NCBI GenBank assembly: GCA_964016885.1
Contig: OZ024750.1
Span: 5,394,001 to 5,458,000, forward strand
Origin: Eledone cirrhosa
Lineage: Eukaryota
DNA length: 64,000 nucleotides
Reading direction: 5' to 3'
Shown: in pieces, positions 471 to 64,000 of the stretch
Position numbering within the stretch: the first letter of the stretch is position 1
Layout: every line of letters begins with the position of its first letter
Program-made: the position numbers and the translations under genes
The notes under the pieces: model-generated
The model's database searches: none
The model's input: the letters and a program-made list of their open reading frames with translations, nothing else
Told to the model about the DNA's origin: nothing

Positions 471-523
<53 letters not shown>

Positions 524-615
524 ATATATCATATATATATATATATGATATATATATATATATCATATATATATATAATATATATATATATCATATATAT
601 ATCATATATATATAT
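1..615. repeat. (TA)n-rich microsatellite
   Basis: Directly visible. Similar long tracts lie at 20550-21010 and 26930-27498. Confidence 0.95.
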
Positions 616-907
616 AGGCTAACATTGTTACACACCAAAATAATTGAGTTACACACACACACTGACCCCTAAACATGTCACACACACTGACCCCTAAACA
701 TGTCACACACACTGACTCCTAAACATGTCATACACACAGAGGCACAGTTGTCTTTATTTCTATAATTATTTAATTTCTTCACCAAGTAAAGTGAAAACCA
801 TTTATTATAATATATATTGTTGCAATACACTGTAAATAACTCGTACTTTGTCATAGTAAGACTGCTAAATCAACTCACTATCCTTTTGAATATAAAAAAA
901 AAACCTT

Positions 908-943
<36 letters not shown>

Positions 944-2059
944 GTTGTAACATAATTTCCTGCCGTTTTTTATTAAGAAGTTTTAATAACAACGGCAGGA
1001 ATGTATGTTTCAGCCCAATATATATATATATTATATATATTAAAATATACAAACTTGTATCACACATTTCTTTGAGTTATATAAAAAAAAAATCACAAAA
1101 CAAAAACAAGATAACCTAAAACTCTGAATATATAATACATTCATCATTTTCTTTCTTTAACAAACCTGTAAACTGTTGGCATTCCAAGACTTTTTAAGCA
1201 TTTATAACAATATTACAGTGGAATAATGAAAGAAAGTACTAGACTATAAGAAACAGAATACATTGTAAAGGCAAGCAAAAAAAAAAAAAGTGTTGTAAGG
1301 TTACATGCATAAATAGAAAATAGAGAACTGTTTCTTTGTCACCAAATTTATGGTAACAAGTTCAAACAATAAGTTTACATATTAGAGATATTGCACAAAT
1401 ACGAAATACAATGTTTTTATTTTTTATTTTTTTAAAAATAATTTTTAAAATTTTTTTTTCTTATTATTTTTTCCAAAATGACTACATGGGGGTGGGGGTG
1501 GGAGGGAGAAAAAAAAAACAGAAATGAATAAAAAAAAAAAATTTAATAACAAAAACATGTTGCTGAGTTTGTTTGTTTATTTAATTACTAATTATTATTT
1601 AAATTTAATCTAATTCTACTGTCAAAGAGTTGGACTGAAGCTTATGTTACTACAATAATATCATTTTTTTTTTGTAAGTGGATAAGGAAATGATTTTTAC
1701 ATTATTAATAATTTTTCTGTTTTTTTTTTTCACCAATTCTTCAGTTAGATTTCTGCAAGAAATCCTCTCCTTCATGACAAAATTATTATTATTTTTTTTT
1801 AAATTTTCAAATATATTTTTTTTATTAAATAAGAAATCCTTTTTGATTTCTTTTCCATTTTATTTTCATGCCCACCCAGCCTCGCATTGTTGCTACCAAA
1901 AAATATCAAAATACACTCTCTCCATGTTAACCATCATTAATATCTCTACTTGCTTTAACATCACAAATTTCTCAATGAAATCATATTCTTTTGGAGCTTC
2001 CTTTACTCTATTTAACTTGGCTTCTTTGCATCAACTTTCTTATTTTCATCCAAAAAAGC

Positions 2060-2099
<40 letters not shown>

Positions 2100-2100
<1 letters not shown>

Positions 2101-2329
2101 CGGTTTCTTATATAGGCACAAGGCCAGCAATTTTGGAGGAGGGGAAAGTCGATTAAAATCGACCCCAGTGGTATTTTATCAGACTGGTACTTTATTTTAT
2201 CGATCCTGTAAGGATGAAAGGCAAAGTTAACCTCAGTGGGATTTGAACTCAGATCATAAAGGGCTGTAACTCTATGCTGCAAAGCATGGTGTCCGACCGT
2301 CTACCAATACTGCCAATCCATCGCCCTTG
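2100..2329 (-). mobile_element. SINE family A
   Basis: Full-length reverse copy with (aat)n tail. Confidence 0.8.
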
Positions 2330-2510
2330 ATAATAATAATAAAAACAACAACAATAATGATAATATTAAAGTTCTTTCTAATACCAAGTCATGTACAATG
2401 GTATATTAATAATATGCTTTTATGTTTTTATAGTTTCAAATCTAATAAATATTTATTTTCTATTTTTATTTAATATATTTAAATCCAATTATATATACAC
2501 ATATATTAAA

Positions 2511-2558
<48 letters not shown>

Positions 2559-3867
2559 CATGTGGGTATATACGCATATTTATGTGTGAATATAAATGTA
2601 TATATAAAGTAATGCATTGTTATGGAGCAGGATATGATAAAAGCCAAAAAAAACAACAAAACAAAACAGACATTTAGACAAAAACAAAAAGAAAAGGAAA
2701 AGGGTTGATTGATTTAGCAATAGAAGTGCATATATATATATATATATATATAATATATATATATGTGAGTCCCACGTTCAATTGGGGATAACCACAGTAA
2801 GTAAGGTACTCAATACATTAGTAGAATGTAAACATCAAATTTGAATATAGCAATGGCTTCTACAGGACTGATAATTTCTCTCAGTTCTAGTCCATTTCTA
2901 TATTAAATTTTATATATATATATATATTTGCTCTAGAGTTCTTATATATTTGATATATATTTATCCTTATCGAGCTCTCTTTAGTCTTCATATTTATTAT
3001 TATTACTATGTATATATATATATATATAGCTTTCTTTTGATGAAGTAAATTACAGTTTACATTTACATGCTTAACATGAGTTCACCTTAAGAAACTTCAG
3101 AAGGACAAAATTAAATTCGAAATGAAAATGCTCAGATAAGTAATAACATTTTTTTTTTGCTGGTGACATATCTAAAACATCATTGGAAGAACAACAAAGT
3201 AATAACAACAAAGAAATAATAACAAAAACTACTGCAATATATATTGGGTGATTAAAAAAAAATTTGAACAAATTATTTAAATGAACAGACAATGGTGTGG
3301 TAGAGCGCCAAACATTGCCAAAATTGTTTATGTTGTTTATGTTATAACAATTTGTTTTAATGTTTGTTTTAAAAAAAAACAACATTTAATTGTTATTATT
3401 TTTTTTTTAATTATTTTTTTTTTAAAGATTAGTAATATGTACAATTGAATACTAACTACAGTTGCAGTTTATATACATTGATTAAATGATACAGAAGTTC
3501 GGTTTCATTAACTGGATGGAAATTGTAAAAGGAACAAAAACATGATAAAATTATTATCAAGCATAAATGTTGAGTCATTATTCTGGGGATTGGAAATAAT
3601 TTCCCCAAAGGAAGGAAAGAATAAACATTTTTTTTCATATTTATAGCATTTGTTATTGAAGCATTATAACTACTAACACATGGACCATATTGGATTGGTG
3701 GAAAAAAATATATATATAATATATACGTTTGTATACACAATTTGTTTGGTGCTTATAATATATGTGATAATTATTATAATGTGTATATATATATGTATGT
3801 ATGTAATGTATGTATGTATGTATATATATATATATTTATATATATATATATATGTATGTATGTATGC

Positions 3868-3928
<61 letters not shown>

Positions 3929-4847
3929 CAAAATGAAAAAAAAAAATGAAAGACCTGTACAATTTTTCTTCTTTTTTTATGGACATGACTTACAACCAGT
4001 ATTTATGTTTTACACTTAATACTCTTTATTGTAAGAGCAAGTTTATTAAACACTTTGGTTGTACACTCAAAGTCTTTCAACCCGTATGACAAAGAAGCCC
4101 TCATTTCAGCAACAAGGAATTATAGGGATTCAATTTTAAATCCTTTTCTCATATTTTTTTTTTTAAATTAAATTTTTTGTCTTTGAATTTCTATAGCTTT
4201 TGACAGTTGATTTTTGACTATTGAAAACTGATTATCTGAAGAGAAAAATAAAATAATAAGCACAACCCATTACATTGTTTTCAATGAAAAATAATAAATG
4301 GTATATGAATAAAAATTTTGAAAAAAAAAAACAAAACAAAAAAAAAACACGAAAATTAAATAAAATTTAAAAGTAGTTTAAATTACAATTCTCTCTGGAC
4401 ATGGAAAGGAAATCGTTAAGAAAGAAAAAAAAAGTTTTTTCTTAATTATAGTAAAACAAAATACAAACAGATTTTGTTAAAAATATTGACGTGTTAAACA
4501 GAATTTGGAGCATTGACTGTTGGCAATAATTAGATTAAATGCTCAATTAGTTCAAAAGCAACGACAATGTATATATATAGAATTGTCATTGATCGTGTTT
4601 TGTCTGTCTGCCTGATATACCCTCACTTTGTTTGAGTAAAAAATTGTCTTTTCAACCAAATGCACATATTAGCCATATGTTACACTAGTGTGCAAGTTAG
4701 TTTGAGATTAATGTGTAAAGTTATAGTTAGCAATTATTATTTTGTATATATTACTATTATTATTGTTATTATTTATTTCAGATTTAATATGTTTTTTTTC
4801 TATAAAATTACAAGGAGAGAGATGTAAAAATAAAAATAAAAGGATGA

Positions 4848-9738: not shown

Positions 9739-9815
<77 letters not shown>

Positions 9816-10254
9816 AAAGATAACAAGGATGATTGGTTCCGCCTTCATTACATTTATTGGTTGGTGACGCCTTGAGTTGATCAGTGGCGTCACCAACCAA
9901 TAAATGTAATGAATCGTAACCAATCGTCCTTGTTATCTTTTCACTATAATTGTTTCTACGTTAGGCACAAGGCCAGCAATTACCCAGTACATTACTGGTA
10001 CTTTATTTTATCGACCCCGTAAGGATGAAAGGCAAAGTTAACCTCGGCGGGATTTGAACTCAGAATGGCAAGGGCCATAACTCCATGCATCAAAGCATCT
10101 TTTCACTATAATACACTCTGTCTAGCTCTACACCTCGACACAGAAGTGAACCTAAACATTGAGTGCTCACCTGGGTTAACCTACAGTAACTCCACGTTAC
10201 ACACCCTGGATATATATATATATATATATATCCATGGAGTGCAACTTGGAGTTA

Positions 10255-13251: not shown

Positions 13252-13330
<79 letters not shown>

Positions 13331-13457
13331 AAAGTTCTATTTAAATTGTTGGGATACAACAAGTAAATATTTTTATAACTGATATAAAGCACTCGACAAG
13401 TATTTGGAGTTGATATACGATATTAACAAATGGAAACTATATTTATAAAACCATATT

Positions 13458-13522
13458 TATTTCATTATACATATTTCAAGGATACCAAGTTAAATTATGG
13501 TATGCCTTCATCAGACAAAATA
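13458..13522 (-). ncRNA. Type I hammerhead ribozyme motif (mirror copy)
   Basis: Reverse complement of 13662-13726 in the left arm of the palindrome. Confidence 0.63.
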
Positions 13523-13661
13523 CAATATATACCAGTTTTATAAATAAACATTGACGTACCCTTTCAAAACGCGACCGTTACTTTTGGAAATGTCTTCCAA
13601 AAGTAACGGTCACATTTTGAAAGGGTACGTCAATGTTTATTTATAAAACTGGTATATATTG

Positions 13662-13726
13662 TATTTTGTCTGATGAAGGCATACCATAATTTAACTTGGT
13701 ATCCTTGAAATATGTATAATGAAATA
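13662..13726 (+). ncRNA. Type I hammerhead ribozyme motif
   Basis: UAUUUUGU-CUGAUGA-AGGCAUACCA(loop)UGGUAUCCUU-GAAA-UAUGUA-UA^AUGAAAUA. The core is intact, stem II has 9 of 10 pairs, stem III is near-palindromic and the cleavage triplet is AUA. Confidence 0.65.
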
Positions 13727-13758
13727 AATATGGTTTTATAAATATAATTTCCATATCG

Positions 13759-13792
<34 letters not shown>

Positions 13793-27416: not shown

Positions 27417-27702
27417 ATATATATATATACACACACATACATATATATATATACCTATATATATATTTATATTTATACATATATATATATATTTATATTT
27501 TGTTTCTGAATTTGTTTAGCAAGATTCTTTATCTGAAATTGTGTGTTGAAACCGATATTGTTATACTTTGGGAGGGTCATGTTGCCAGTAAGAAACAGAC
27601 GCACCAGTTGCTTTCACTTCAATTTATTATAATAAATTTATAATAAATTTATAAATTTCTGGTTGGTTGGTTGGTTCCACAACCAGATAGTTGTTTATAT
27701 AT

Positions 27703-27747
27703 AGTCATAGTTCTTTCGTCACACACTCTGTGACCTCTTCAGTGACC
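27703..27747 (-). ncRNA. Type I hammerhead ribozyme motif (mirror copy in left palindrome arm)
   Basis: Reverse complement of 27858-27902 with one change in stem I (GGUCA, giving a G-U pair). Confidence 0.72.
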
Positions 27748-27857
27748 GGGGATTCCTTTCTTTGTTTCTGTGCCTCTCCTTTGTTCTGTCCTACGCCATT
27801 TTGTTTCTGTGTAGGACAGAACAAAGGAGAGGCACAGAAACAAAGAAAGGAATCCCC

Positions 27858-27902
27858 AGTCACTGAAGAGGTCACAGAGTGTGTGACGAAAGAACTATGA
27901 CT
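27858..27902 (+). ncRNA. Type I hammerhead ribozyme motif
   Basis: AGUCA-CUGAAGA-G-GUCACA(GAGUG)UGUGAC-GAAA-G(AA)C-UA^UGACU. Stem I is AGUCA/UGACU, the core is intact, stem II has 6 bp plus one extra G, stem III is minimal and the cleavage triplet is CUA. Confidence 0.75.
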
Positions 27903-28078
27903 CTATATAAACAACTATCTGGTTGTGGAACCAACCAACCAACCAGAAATTTATAAATTTATTATAAATTTATTATAATAAATTGAAGTGAAAGCAACTG
28001 GTGCGTGTGTTTCTTACTGGCAACATGACCCTCCCAAAGTATAACAATATATATTTATATATATGTATGTATATATAC

Positions 28079-33591: not shown

Positions 33592-34152
33592 TTAACCCTT
33601 TAGTATTTACATTACTCTATATTTACTTTTGTATTTTCACGGTAAAGGCTTTATCTTACATACTTATCTCACATAATATCGAATCTATGAGATTTTGATA
33701 TTATTTATTTTGAGAGCTGTAACTGACCACTCATACTGATGTCCAGGTATTGTTCTCAAAATAAATAATTGTTTCTACTTTTGGCACAAGGCCAGCAATT
33801 ACCGAGTGTATTACTGGTACTTTATTTTATGGACCCCGTAAGGATGAAAGGCAAAATTAACCTCGGTGGGATTTGAACTCAGATCATAAAGGGACATAGA
33901 GTTACGTCCCTTTATGATCTGAGTTCAAATCCCACCGAGGTTAACTTTGCCTTTCATCCTTACGGGGTCCATAAAATAAAGTACCAGTAATGCATTGTGT
34001 AATTGCTGGCCTTGTGCCAAAAGTAGAAACAATTATTTATTTTGAGAACAATACCTGGACATCAGTATGAGTGGTCAGTTACAGCCGGTTTGGACAGAAA
34101 GAGGTGAGAGAATTCTGGCCGGATATGGCCGTTTTAAATGCTAAAGAGTTAA
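33592..34152 (+). mobile_element. piggyBac-type MITE family 1 containing a fold-back SINE pair
   Basis: TIRs and TTAA are present; there is an internal palindrome at 33716-34085. Confidence 0.75.
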
Positions 34153-36507: not shown

Positions 36508-52411
<15,904 letters not shown>

Positions 52412-55685: not shown

Positions 55686-56562
55686 CACCCCCGTCCCACT
55701 ACCCCCAACCCATCCACACCACCCCCTTAAATGTGAAGTTATGTTGGTACCACAACATCCAGTCCGAAACAAATGAGGTCGTGTAGGTGTCACGACAAAA
55801 AAAACAAAAAAACACACAGTCCACGCTGTAATGTGGCCGTGTAGGTAACACGGTAAAAACCTCCCTGTACACACTGTAAACGTGGTTGGTGTTGGGCAGG
55901 GCACCCAGCCGTAGAAAACCCGCCAGACGTGTAGGTGTCACGACAAAAAAACACACAGTCCACGCTGTAATGTGGCCGTGTAGGTAACACTGTAAAAACC
56001 TCCCAGTCCACACTGTAAACGTGGTTGGTGTTAGGAAGGGCATCCAGCCGTAGAAAACCCGCCAGACAGTCCTATACGAGCAGGACAACCAATCTTGCCT
56101 CAAGTGGGAAAACTCCCATGGAAGATGGACGTTAAACGATGATGATGATATATATATATTAACTAGTCTGTGTATAATTATAATATTATGATCCAGCATT
56201 AAAAGAATGCTTATAGCCTACATCAGACCCCAAAATGTCACCCAGGTTGGACCACCTCCCTCTAGCCATGCTACTGTTGCCTCATACTCTAATGTCCAGT
56301 TTTATCTATCTACAGAATATATTAAACACATTAAAGTGAAAACATTCTCTGTGTATCATCATCACCGTTTTACGTCCGTTCTTCCGTCTAACCCATGCTA
56401 GCGTGGAAGAACGGACGTAAAACGGTGATGATGATACACAGAGAATGTTTTCACTTTAATCATCAGACATAAATATAATCCCAAACCTGAAACAGTTTTA
56501 TTAATTTGATAGTAAGCTAAGTTCATTAAGATATTGAAATTGTTGTTATTATTTACCACAAA

Positions 56563-61735: not shown

Positions 61736-64000
61736 TTTATCTATTTATTTATTATTTATTTATATTGTTGCTATTGACACTATTAGAAAAATGTCAATTA
61801 ATTCACTTCCACACCATTCTTTAACTGCAGTTAGACTTTGTAGAGAAATTACAAGAATGGAATTTTCTCTGACAGCAATACAAAGACTCTATTGTGAGAG
61901 AAGAGAATCCAACATCTCAACTAAACACATAATATACAACACAATAGTTAATGAAGACATGACCTTCGATTATATTAACATTGATGAGATTTAACTATGC
62001 TTGGGTCTCAAATAATCCTCTACCCTCGCTTCTTTCATATTCTTTCTAACCCCCACCCTGCTGTTAAACCAGTAGTAAACTAGTTAGACCCTAATTCAAC
62101 AGAATACTCAATATTTGGGATAGGAGAGTAAGACTATATCAGAAAGAGTTGGGGGTCCAATGGGTGAGCTCTTGAAATGGCAAGAGCTCAGCCAACTCTT
62201 TCTAATATATATATATCATCATCATCATCATCATCACCGTTTTACGTCTGTTCCTCCATGCTAGCATGGGTTAGACGGGTTGTCCTGTTGTGGGCAGTGT
62301 CCGGTCGGCTGGCCATGTGTTGCTCATACAGGAACTGATTCTGGCTTGATTTCTACAGCTGGATGCCCTTCCTAACACCAACCTCATTTACAGTGAGTGG
62401 TGGGTGCTTTTTTCCATGGCGCCTACATGTCAACGTTACAGTGTGGGTTGGGTGCTTTTTTATCGTGGCACCTCCACGACCATGTTGCAGACCATGTTGT
62501 TGTCTATATGCTTCAGCTTTGGCTTGTACCTGTGGGGGGGGGGGGGTCTTCTGTATTACTGTGTGACACCAGAGGTCACGGTCGTGTGTCATTGGTTAAG
62601 GTCAGCTATATATATAACGAAGGAAGTGTGGTAAGGAACCACCAGGTGGACCATAATGCACCAGAGTACTCGATACTTAGGGTAGTAGAGTGGGTAATAG
62701 GAAAAGAGTCAGGTCCCTGACGGCTGAGCTCTGGCCGTTTCGACAGAGTTCAGGTCTAGCTGTCGAAACGGCCGGAGCTCAGCCGTTGGGGTCCTGACTC
62801 TTTTCCTATATATATATATATATACATATATATACATACACATAATATGGTATATAGTCAATCCATTGGTAATCGGGAGGTGTATATTAGCATATGGTAA
62901 TAAAATATCCCACAGTTTCATCAATAAAAATTAAAACAAAGGAATTAATTTTATGCTGTAAGAAAGAAAGAGAGTAGAGCTCAGTTTTTAGGTCATTCAC
63001 AAAGAACAAACGGAAATGGCAAAAATAAAAGTGAATGGTGGTGGGATGGTGGGATGGTTAATTTCAGGAAAAATGTGTTTACAATGAAATCCTCGTAGTG
63101 AAATGAATAACAGAAGTGATTTGAGCGGAGTAGTGTATTACAGTCACAACAGAGATTTTCAGCAAAGACAGATAAGGTGCGAGAGTGTAAGATGCATGTC
63201 TGTGTTCTAGAGCCAAGGGAAATAAGGTGTGAGTATATGTTATGTATGTGTGTGTGTGTGTGTGTGTGTAAGAGAGTATGTGTATGTGTTCAGGTGAACA
63301 TGTGCTGGTGTGTATATTCTTCTGTGTAGATGGTGTGAATAAGGTCTAATAGTATGTGTATGTGATGGATGGGTAATGTGTGTGTTTGTGTGCTATGGAT
63401 GGGTGATGTGTGTGTGTTGAGACAGAGGAGGTTGTGAAATGGACATGAAGGCATTAATCAGAGTATTTCAGAGAGAGACAGTGTTAGTAAGAGAAACCCC
63501 TTGGGTGAGATGTGTTTAGACAGAAGATTAGTTGTTATTCACAAAGCAAGCAGGAGAGAAGTGGGTGAGAGAAGATCTTTAGTGTAAAATAAACATCACA
63601 GTTTAATAGTGTTTGATTATACTACAATGTTGTTTTACATGGTATTTTACATGATATATAACACCACCACAGTATAATAGGGTAACTATATATACACATC
63701 ATATTAGATTCATATGTATTGAAACAGTCATGCAAATAAATGTCCCCATGTATATGTATATATATACACAGTATATGCATATTATATATATATATATATA
63801 TATATACAGTATATGCCTATTAACCTTATCAGATTAAAATGGCAGCTATTTAAGACAAACAAACAAAACCACCCAGTATAAAGTATGAGGGGTTTCTTTA
63901 CATAATCCCAACACTAGAAATTAGTGTCGTGTCAGGAAAAATCTAAAATGATGATGATGATGATGATTGAGATGATGATGATGATGATTACGAGATGATA

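What the first reader, a model, noticed from the sequence alone, without database searches (positions are those of the whole stretch)
13328..13760. Second, unrelated TA-embedded palindrome with paired hammerheads; sibling copy at 48908-49290 shows a structure-consistent substitution
Seen: 160-bp arms around a 5-nt spacer, each with CUGAUGA-stem II-GAAA-UAUGUA-UA. The 49.2 kb copy is not palindromic but keeps the core, with stem II G-C in place of G-U and two extra pairs. Stem III (AUAUGUAU) is near-palindromic, as expected for hammerheads that cleave as dimers. Inference: an independent family uses the same architecture as the 27.5 kb element, so 'hammerhead + inversion + (TA)n target' is a recurring system rather than a one-off.
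Basis: partly seen in the sequence, partly recalled or inferred. Interest (0 to 1): 0.72.

Follow-up and report, generated by a model that had tools for sequence, protein, structure and literature searches.

The report
Back-to-back stumps of Penelope-like retrotransposon
This DNA palindrome is two short back-to-back copies of the ribozyme-bearing end of a very abundant Penelope-like jumping gene, an insertion form already described for this class; its copies nearly always pair one long with one short end, which likely means that each cut strand of the target DNA starts its own copy at its own fixed spot on the element's RNA.

Summary
In detail: 160-bp arms (157/160 matched), a type I hammerhead motif in each arm, and a sibling at 49 kb with the stated stem II changes. 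The element is a 5'-truncated, inverted insertion of an autonomous Penelope-like element (PLE) of the Hydra clade. Its terminus follows a 742-aa RT + GIY-YIG ORF in 15 of 16 long genomic loci, and the family's hammerhead pattern occurs 4,733 times. Hammerheads in pseudo-LTRs, inverted 5' copies, a tail on one end and (TA)n targets are all published PLE traits. Corrections: the two ribozymes lie on opposite strands, so they cannot dimerise in cis; the 5-nt 'spacer' is the element's own sequence; the sibling is also an inverted insertion. Added here: 47 of 49 typed two-armed insertions carry one short and one long end, 85 nt apart and both at TATA words; some arms share no sequence, which excludes fold-back self-priming; 38 of 145 arms stop near one 5' spot and none at the ribozyme cut. 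Best model: twin priming on uncut sense RNA (inferred). This scan found the same architecture before in other windows of this genome. New member of a known kind; modest interest.

The parts
13253..13327 (.). (TA)n tract, left flank of the insertion
13328..13589 (-). Long arm: PLE pseudo-LTR end from position +1 to the long (L) end, q1-q262
13328..13412 (-). 85-nt tail between the short (S) and long (L) ends; in full-length copies it is the stretch between the upstream pLTR and the ORF start (ATG at q311)
13458..13522 (-). Type I hammerhead motif of the long arm; predicted cut after the A at 13466
13590..13594 (+). 'Spacer': element positions -4..0, the 5' end of the short arm, inside the 5'-end hotspot (-15..+2)
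13590..13758 (+). Short arm: pLTR end from -4 to the short (S) end, with an 8-nt deletion just before the end
13662..13726 (+). Type I hammerhead motif of the short arm (core 13670-13676, GAAA 13707-13710; predicted cut after A13718)
13759..13782 (.). (TA)n tract, right flank
48909..48975 (-). Sibling insertion, long-end arm: tail piece q196-q262 only
48980..49287 (+). Sibling insertion, short-end arm, about q-137 to the S end; another subfamily (about 91% identical)
49183..49247 (+). Sibling hammerhead motif with G-C for G.U and two extra stem II pairs

Best explanation
The palindrome is a 5'-truncated, two-armed insertion of a Hydra-clade Penelope-like retrotransposon in a (TA)n tract, likely made when each of the two cut target strands primed its own cDNA at one of two fixed internal sites of the element's sense RNA. 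Shown: the terminus is the pseudo-LTR of an element with a 742-aa RT + C-terminal GIY-YIG ORF; copies end at two sites (S, L) 85 nt apart, both in TATA words; two-armed insertions pair S with L; arms of one insertion come from the same subfamily. Inferred: the endonuclease cuts both strands of (TA)n; the free 3' ends pair with the UAUA at S and at L; the two cDNAs run toward the RNA 5' end, often to a spot about 90 nt upstream of the ribozyme core that would be the transcription start; their far ends are joined directly, with a few bases of overlap or filler. The hammerhead is a passenger of the pseudo-LTR here: it is predicted to need a second sense copy (stem III 8-mer self-pairing) and the copied RNAs were, as far as the sample shows, not cut by it.
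For: Same-strand terminus downstream of the ORF in 15 of 16 long loci, and a direct upstream pLTR in 9 of 16. 107 scored RT matches at 89-100% identity. Census of the first 80 loci on contig C1 (its 100 listed matches fall into 81 loci; the last was not fetched): 145 arms, 139 typed S or L, 131 of those 139 followed by TA-like letters; 54 outward-facing pairs: 47 S+L, 1 S+S, 1 L+L (on reading, an S arm abutting an older L piece), 5 with an untyped end; about half S+L would be expected if ends were independent (hand arithmetic). In the long loci 9 of 9 insertions with both ends visible are S+L (read by eye). In 6 of 51 S+L pairs, and in the window's 49-kb copy, the L arm lies wholly in the tail, so neither arm can be a fold-back copy of the other. 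Arms of one insertion differ by 0-6% against a median of 4-16% to other arms; the partner is nearest or tied in 19 of 31 pairs. 38 of 145 arms begin at -15..+2 and 0 of 145 at the ribozyme cut q123-127. Stem II: 8 of 9 pairs change on both sides; stem III innermost pair, impossible in a monomer, is a standard pair in 21 of 22 sequences; stem III costs +2.9 kcal/mol as a monomer hairpin. PMC11167929 shows in vitro that a PLE protein cuts and extends both strands, starts at two internal RNA sites that bound the tail, and uses uncut RNA.
Against: All mechanism is read from genomic fossils; no RNA or enzyme data. The census loci were chosen by the 5' half of the hammerhead, so at least one arm had to reach past the cut site; this weakens the 'none at the cut' count (60 loci anchored on S or L ends, partly the same loci, gave one arm at q124, which is an arm broken by a nested insertion, and one at q128). 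Some '+2' 5' ends are alignment stops at a reference mismatch. Arm similarity could also come from gene conversion after insertion or from two RNAs of one source locus; in 12 of 31 pairs another arm was closer than the partner. Upstream pLTRs of partial tandems start at scattered positions (11 rows, -1246 to +243), so templates longer than the proposed start exist. An untemplated cap G at -13 is not supported: 7 of 16 have G, but 4 of those 7 are explained by the other arm. Covariation sequences are related and were found with a pattern that fixes parts of stems I and III.
Confidence: 0.72

Rival explanations
1. Same element, but the inversion arises by fold-back self-priming (one cDNA or an antisense template folds and copies itself), as proposed for rotifer Penelope palindromes.
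For: PMC3846280 (passages) reads palindromic junctions as self-priming; arms of one insertion are near-identical; 10 of 51 pairs end within 10 nt of each other.
Against: A fold-back arm must lie within the first arm. The S arm reaches further 5' than the L arm in 32 of 51 pairs while lacking the tail, and in 6 pairs plus the 49-kb copy the arms share no sequence.
Confidence: 0.08
2. Two separate RNA molecules (or an RNA dimer held by stem III) from one source are copied, one onto each target end.
For: Arms overlap over kilobases in some insertions (L031), which on one RNA needs strand displacement; stem III is self-complementary; a PLE protein dimer is predicted in PMC11167929.
Against: Does not by itself explain why one end always uses S and the other L; arms were never clearly of two subfamilies, though two pairs differ by 5.5-6% without a clear pattern.
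Confidence: 0.15
3. A non-autonomous retrozyme or a separate 'hammerhead + inversion' system that replicates through ribozyme-cut circles.
For: Type I hammerhead with palindromic stem III; retrozymes are described as PLE derivatives (bioRxiv 2026.07.22.740005, part 1 read).
Against: No head-to-tail arrays of short monomers in the 80 census loci; the terminus is continuous with an RT-EN ORF; no arm starts at the cut site.
Confidence: 0.04
4. A DNA-transposon TIR/MITE derivative or an assembly artefact.
For: Long inverted repeat in TA; no short-read contig spans the centre.
Against: Arms face outward with unequal fixed ends and variable inner ends; linked to an RT ORF; conserved, covarying ribozyme.
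Confidence: 0.01

Closest known systems
Hydra clade of C-terminal EN+ Penelope-like elements (Craig et al. 2021, PMC8557442; passages, section 11 and supplement search hits read), including Hydra-1_Obim of Octopus bimaculoides
   Same: Single ORF, C-terminal GIY-YIG, DKT, RW(R/K), CxCX5C linker, CxxC and CxH near the end, canonical hammerhead in the pLTR, (TA)n target, partial tandems, inverted 5' copy, tail on one end.
   Different: Unit about 4.0-4.3 kb (long AT-rich 3' UTR) against generally <3 kb; tail 85 nt against 30-40; thousands of copies; hammerhead sequence unlike the one listed for Hydra-1_oBim; RWR instead of RWK.
Poseidon PAc of Anolis (Frangieh et al. 2024, PMC11167929; parts 1-2 of 4 read)
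   Same: Two internal start sites bounding the tail, both target strands used, AT-rich target, hammerhead in the pLTR not needed for insertion.
   Different: [quoted passage not shown]
PLE minimal/dimeric type I hammerheads (Cervera and de la Pena 2014, PMC4209133; parts 1-2 of 4 read)
   Same: In pLTRs, long stem II, short palindromic stem III, dual motifs 100-700 bp apart on opposite strands.
   Different: Here 10.1-11.1 is mostly A-U or G.U rather than G-C, stem II carries a conserved C.Y mismatch at its fourth position, and stem III is an 8-mer.
LINE-1 twin priming (recalled; only search listings seen)
   Same: Both target ends prime cDNAs that are joined into an inversion.
   Different: L1 uses poly(A) plus a variable internal site; here two fixed internal sites, and arms often overlap.

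Membership tests
EN+ Penelope-like element | Single ORF with RT and GIY-YIG endonuclease | tested here: met
   742-aa ORF with YRDD and VVY..YVG motifs in L076, L077, L082. Pfam gave no RT or GIY-YIG match for this protein; GIY-YIG matched only a related family's ORF weakly.
EN+ Penelope-like element | Pseudo-LTRs from partial tandems | tested here: met
   Direct upstream pLTR in 9 of 16 long loci, scattered starts
EN+ Penelope-like element | Inverted 5'-truncated copy and a tail on one end | tested here: met
   54 two-armed insertions in 80 loci, 47 S+L
EN+ Penelope-like element | Type I hammerhead in the pLTR | tested here: met
Hydra clade | C-terminal EN; DKT for DKG; RWK motif | tested here: met
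   KSDKT and IRWRAF (R for K) in P0002, against section 11
Hydra clade | CxCX5C linker; CxxC and CxH around the conserved E and N; CCHH absent | tested here: met
   CNCRNKSNC, CDLC, CRH, one His only in the EN helix region, read by eye
Hydra clade | (TA)n insertion preference | tested here: met
   131 of 139 typed ends run into TA-like letters
Hydra clade | Generally shorter than 3 kb (a tendency, not a rule) | tested here: not met
   pLTR-to-pLTR 4,297 nt in L076, about 3.95-4.2 kb in L082, L080
Hydra clade | Phylogenetic placement with named Hydra RTs | not tested
   No tree built; motif-by-motif likeness to Hydra-1_Obim judged by eye from the supplement excerpt
Active hammerhead ribozyme | Self-cleavage, monomer or dimer | not testable with these tools
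   Core intact and stems covary; predicted MFE is not the hammerhead fold
Non-LTR retrozyme | Head-to-tail arrays of short non-coding monomers | tested here: not met
   None in 80 census loci; terminus belongs to a coding element
Naiad clade | N-terminal EN, no canonical hammerhead | tested here: not met
   EN is C-terminal and the hammerhead is present
DNA transposon / MITE | Equal TIRs at the element ends, no RT | tested here: not met
   Unequal fixed ends, variable inner junction, RT-linked

The most novel reading that the evidence does not exclude
Hydra-clade PLEs integrate by obligatory asymmetric twin priming: on one uncut sense RNA the protein presents two fixed UAUA sites 85 nt apart, each base-pairs with one end of a cut (TA)n target, one site per strand, so microsatellite targeting and the one-sided tail are the same event; the stubby palindromes are paired run-off cDNAs that map the RNA start, and the ~67,000 hammerheads of this superfamily act, if at all, outside the copying step.
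Probability: 0.45. Interest if true: 0.5.

Novelty: new member of a known kind. Interest (0 to 1): 0.27.

Why it matters
As an object it is ordinary: one of thousands of stumps of a PLE family. Its value is as evidence on an open point named in PMC8557442 and PMC11167929, how PLEs make inverted repeats and one-sided tails and why they favour microsatellites. The strict long+short pairing, the non-overlapping arms and the TATA words at both start sites give sharp, cheap in vitro predictions, and intact 742-aa ORFs exist in the genome for such a test. The scan has already reported the same architecture for other families of this genome, so this adds a replicate with counts rather than a new idea.

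Tried and rejected
Rfam scan of the window: no hammerhead family among 140 matches at E<=1, only hairpin-driven miRNA noise. Pfam: no RT or EN match for the family protein. My first guess of the Naiad clade (recalled) was wrong and dropped. RNA: no RNA holder listed; four runs of unrecorded kind, as contigs, were laid and none spans the centre. Empty-site search among 1.26 Mb of fetched loci for 41 S+L insertions gave no clean empty site, so whether the TA tracts pre-exist or grow during insertion is open. Cap-G signature at -13: inconclusive. A hairpin in the tail (ACUC...GAGU): sequence word GAGTGC is invariant in 9 lineages but pair counts show no covariation and RNAalifold predicts nothing (one search used a mis-numbered structure and is void). 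A-to-G editing between arms: no such bias in the 5 pairs viewed. Searches (orientation bug; empty reference) were faulty scripts, redone. Literature searches listed no paper stating an S+L pairing rule or twin priming for PLEs, but the library lacks most subscription papers, and Arkhipova 2006, Evgen'ev and Arkhipova 2005 and Lunse et al. 2017 (recalled) were not read; supplements of PMC11167929, PMC4209133, PMC3846280 and the bioRxiv preprint were not seen and may bear on novelty. No structure prediction was run: it would not change the reading.

Full report
Observation. The inverted repeat is there: arms 13430-13589 and 13595-13754, 157 of 160 matched, between (TA)37 and (TA)12. A motif scan finds three type I hammerheads in the window, at +13670, -13514 and +49191. 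The sibling's stem II has G-C for G.U and two more pairs, as stated. Rfam does not detect them, but a looser scan gives 37 distinct motifs in 583 kb of loci against 0-1 hits per shuffled set.

What it belongs to. The window lies in a 3.0-Gb genome; the nearest named protein relative is from an octopod (39%), so a cephalopod host is likely but was not determined. The arm has 801 first-look candidates; a family hammerhead pattern has 4,733 matches and a loose one 66,996, controls 0. Walking upstream from copies leads through a long AT-rich UTR to an RT ORF. A protein search returns 107 scored copies at 89-100%. In 15 of 16 long loci the finding's terminus follows the ORF on the same strand, and in 9 of 16 it also precedes it, so it is a pseudo-LTR. 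The 742-aa protein has RWR, DKT, YRDD, CxCX5C, a C-terminal GIY-YIG-type motif, CxxC and CxH, matching the Hydra clade description, which also lists hammerheads and (TA)n targets (PMC8557442 section 11; an octopus member is in its supplement). The unit is longer than typical (4.0-4.3 kb) and no tree was built.

Anatomy of the insertion. Copies end at two sites, q177 (short) and q262 (long), both inside TATA words; in full-length copies the sequence runs on through both to the ATG at q311. The window's left arm is q1-262, its right arm q-4 to the short end; the 'spacer' is element sequence. The sibling is a tail-only long arm (q196-262) joined to a short arm from about q-137.

Census. I fetched 80 of the 81 loci formed by the first 100 listed matches. 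They hold 145 arms: 75 short, 64 long, 6 untyped; 54 outward-facing pairs, of which 47 short+long, 1 short+short, 1 long+long (on reading, a short arm next to an older long piece) and 5 with an untyped end; 37 arms are single. Of about 14 TATA/ATAT clusters near the terminus two take nearly all ends; two arms end at a third (q152-155). After re-typing four loci by eye, the short arm reaches further 5' in 32 of 51 pairs, the long in 9, tie in 10; in 6 the arms do not overlap. Arms of one insertion differ by 0-6%, against medians of 4-16%; the partner is nearest or tied in 19 of 31. 38 of 145 arms begin at -15..+2 and none at q123-127, with the caveat that loci were picked by the ribozyme's 5' half; 60 end-anchored loci, partly the same, added no clean case.

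The ribozyme. Across 22 representatives of related families 95.5% of cells pair; 8 of 9 stem II pairs change on both sides; stem III reads as a self-complementary 8-mer, its innermost pair standard in 21 of 22. The sequences are related and partly fixed by the search pattern, so this is support, not a significance test. Monomer stem III is unfavourable (+2.9 kcal/mol) and the palindromic read-through RNA folds into one hairpin that buries the core. Dimer-type hammerheads in PLE repeats, and opposite-strand pairs 100-700 bp apart, are described in PMC4209133.

Mechanism. Shown: membership, two fixed ends, their pairing, same-source arms, the 5' pile-up. Inferred: both strands of (TA)n are cut, each primes at its own UAUA site on uncut sense RNA, the cDNAs run off near a start at about -13 or stop earlier, and are joined end to end. 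This follows the in vitro behaviour of PAc (two internal starts, both strands extended, uncut RNA used; PMC11167929) but differs in that the start sites match the target. Fold-back self-priming (PMC3846280) cannot give arms that share no sequence. One RNA against two is not settled. Against the model or unresolved: no cap signature, upstream pLTRs longer than the proposed start, no RNA data, no empty site.

The 27.5-kb element.

Verdict. Real, explained, and a new family member of a known class. Earlier notes of this scan reached the same reading for other families in this genome, including twin priming and a 5' hotspot; I saw them after forming the PLE reading and took the 5'-hotspot, cap-G and editing checks from them. 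None matched this sequence or place. Interest 0.27.

Noticed in passing
window 27485-28050: Palindrome of another PLE family: own hammerhead, two ends 70 nt apart; terminus follows an RT-EN ORF with DKS and a CX4CXXC linker in L281-L283, L285-L290.
   Followed up: partly
G000 genome-wide: 66,996 matches to one loose hammerhead pattern, several related lineages with a conserved C.Y mismatch at the fourth stem II position; close pairs in the listing face outward.
   Followed up: partly
window 13328-13425 (-) and L004, L008, L022, L102, L114, L117, L147, L156: The word GAGTGC is invariant just inside the tail in 9 lineages, with ACT(C/T) 15-25 nt before it: a candidate protein-binding element beside the short start site; no covariation found.
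   Followed up: partly
window 33716-34085: 370-bp palindrome built from a high-copy ~140-nt repeat and its flank, not TA-flanked, no hammerhead by my scan.
   Followed up: no
window 62697-62809 and 49311-49370: Short TA-adjacent palindrome and a single arm of another repeat family (also in L002, L025, L044) that contains a GAAA-bearing hairpin; possibly stubs cut inside a ribozyme stem.
   Followed up: no
window 906-1053, 9808-9948, 56330-56460: Three more short palindromes, two beside (TA)n.
   Followed up: no
window about 42800-45900: Tandem array of a 36-bp unit, about 85 copies at 94-98% identity.
   Followed up: no
L031 (G000:C5:17574000-17583999) 473-4381: A 3.9-kb palindrome of the finding's family with 2-kb arms; L034 holds a doubly inverted copy.
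   Followed up: partly
L153 400-1100: A short arm abuts an older long-end piece at a place where the family has only a short TATA word but the locus shows (TA)9; hints that TA tracts may grow at insertion.
   Followed up: partly
L035 177-3077 (-) and L290 4509-6159: ORFs of further Hydra-type families (about 45% identity in L290) sit beside copies of these families.
   Followed up: no
L036 4316-6465 (-): Helitron-like Rep/helicase ORFs near a family copy, named from recalled motifs only.
   Followed up: no
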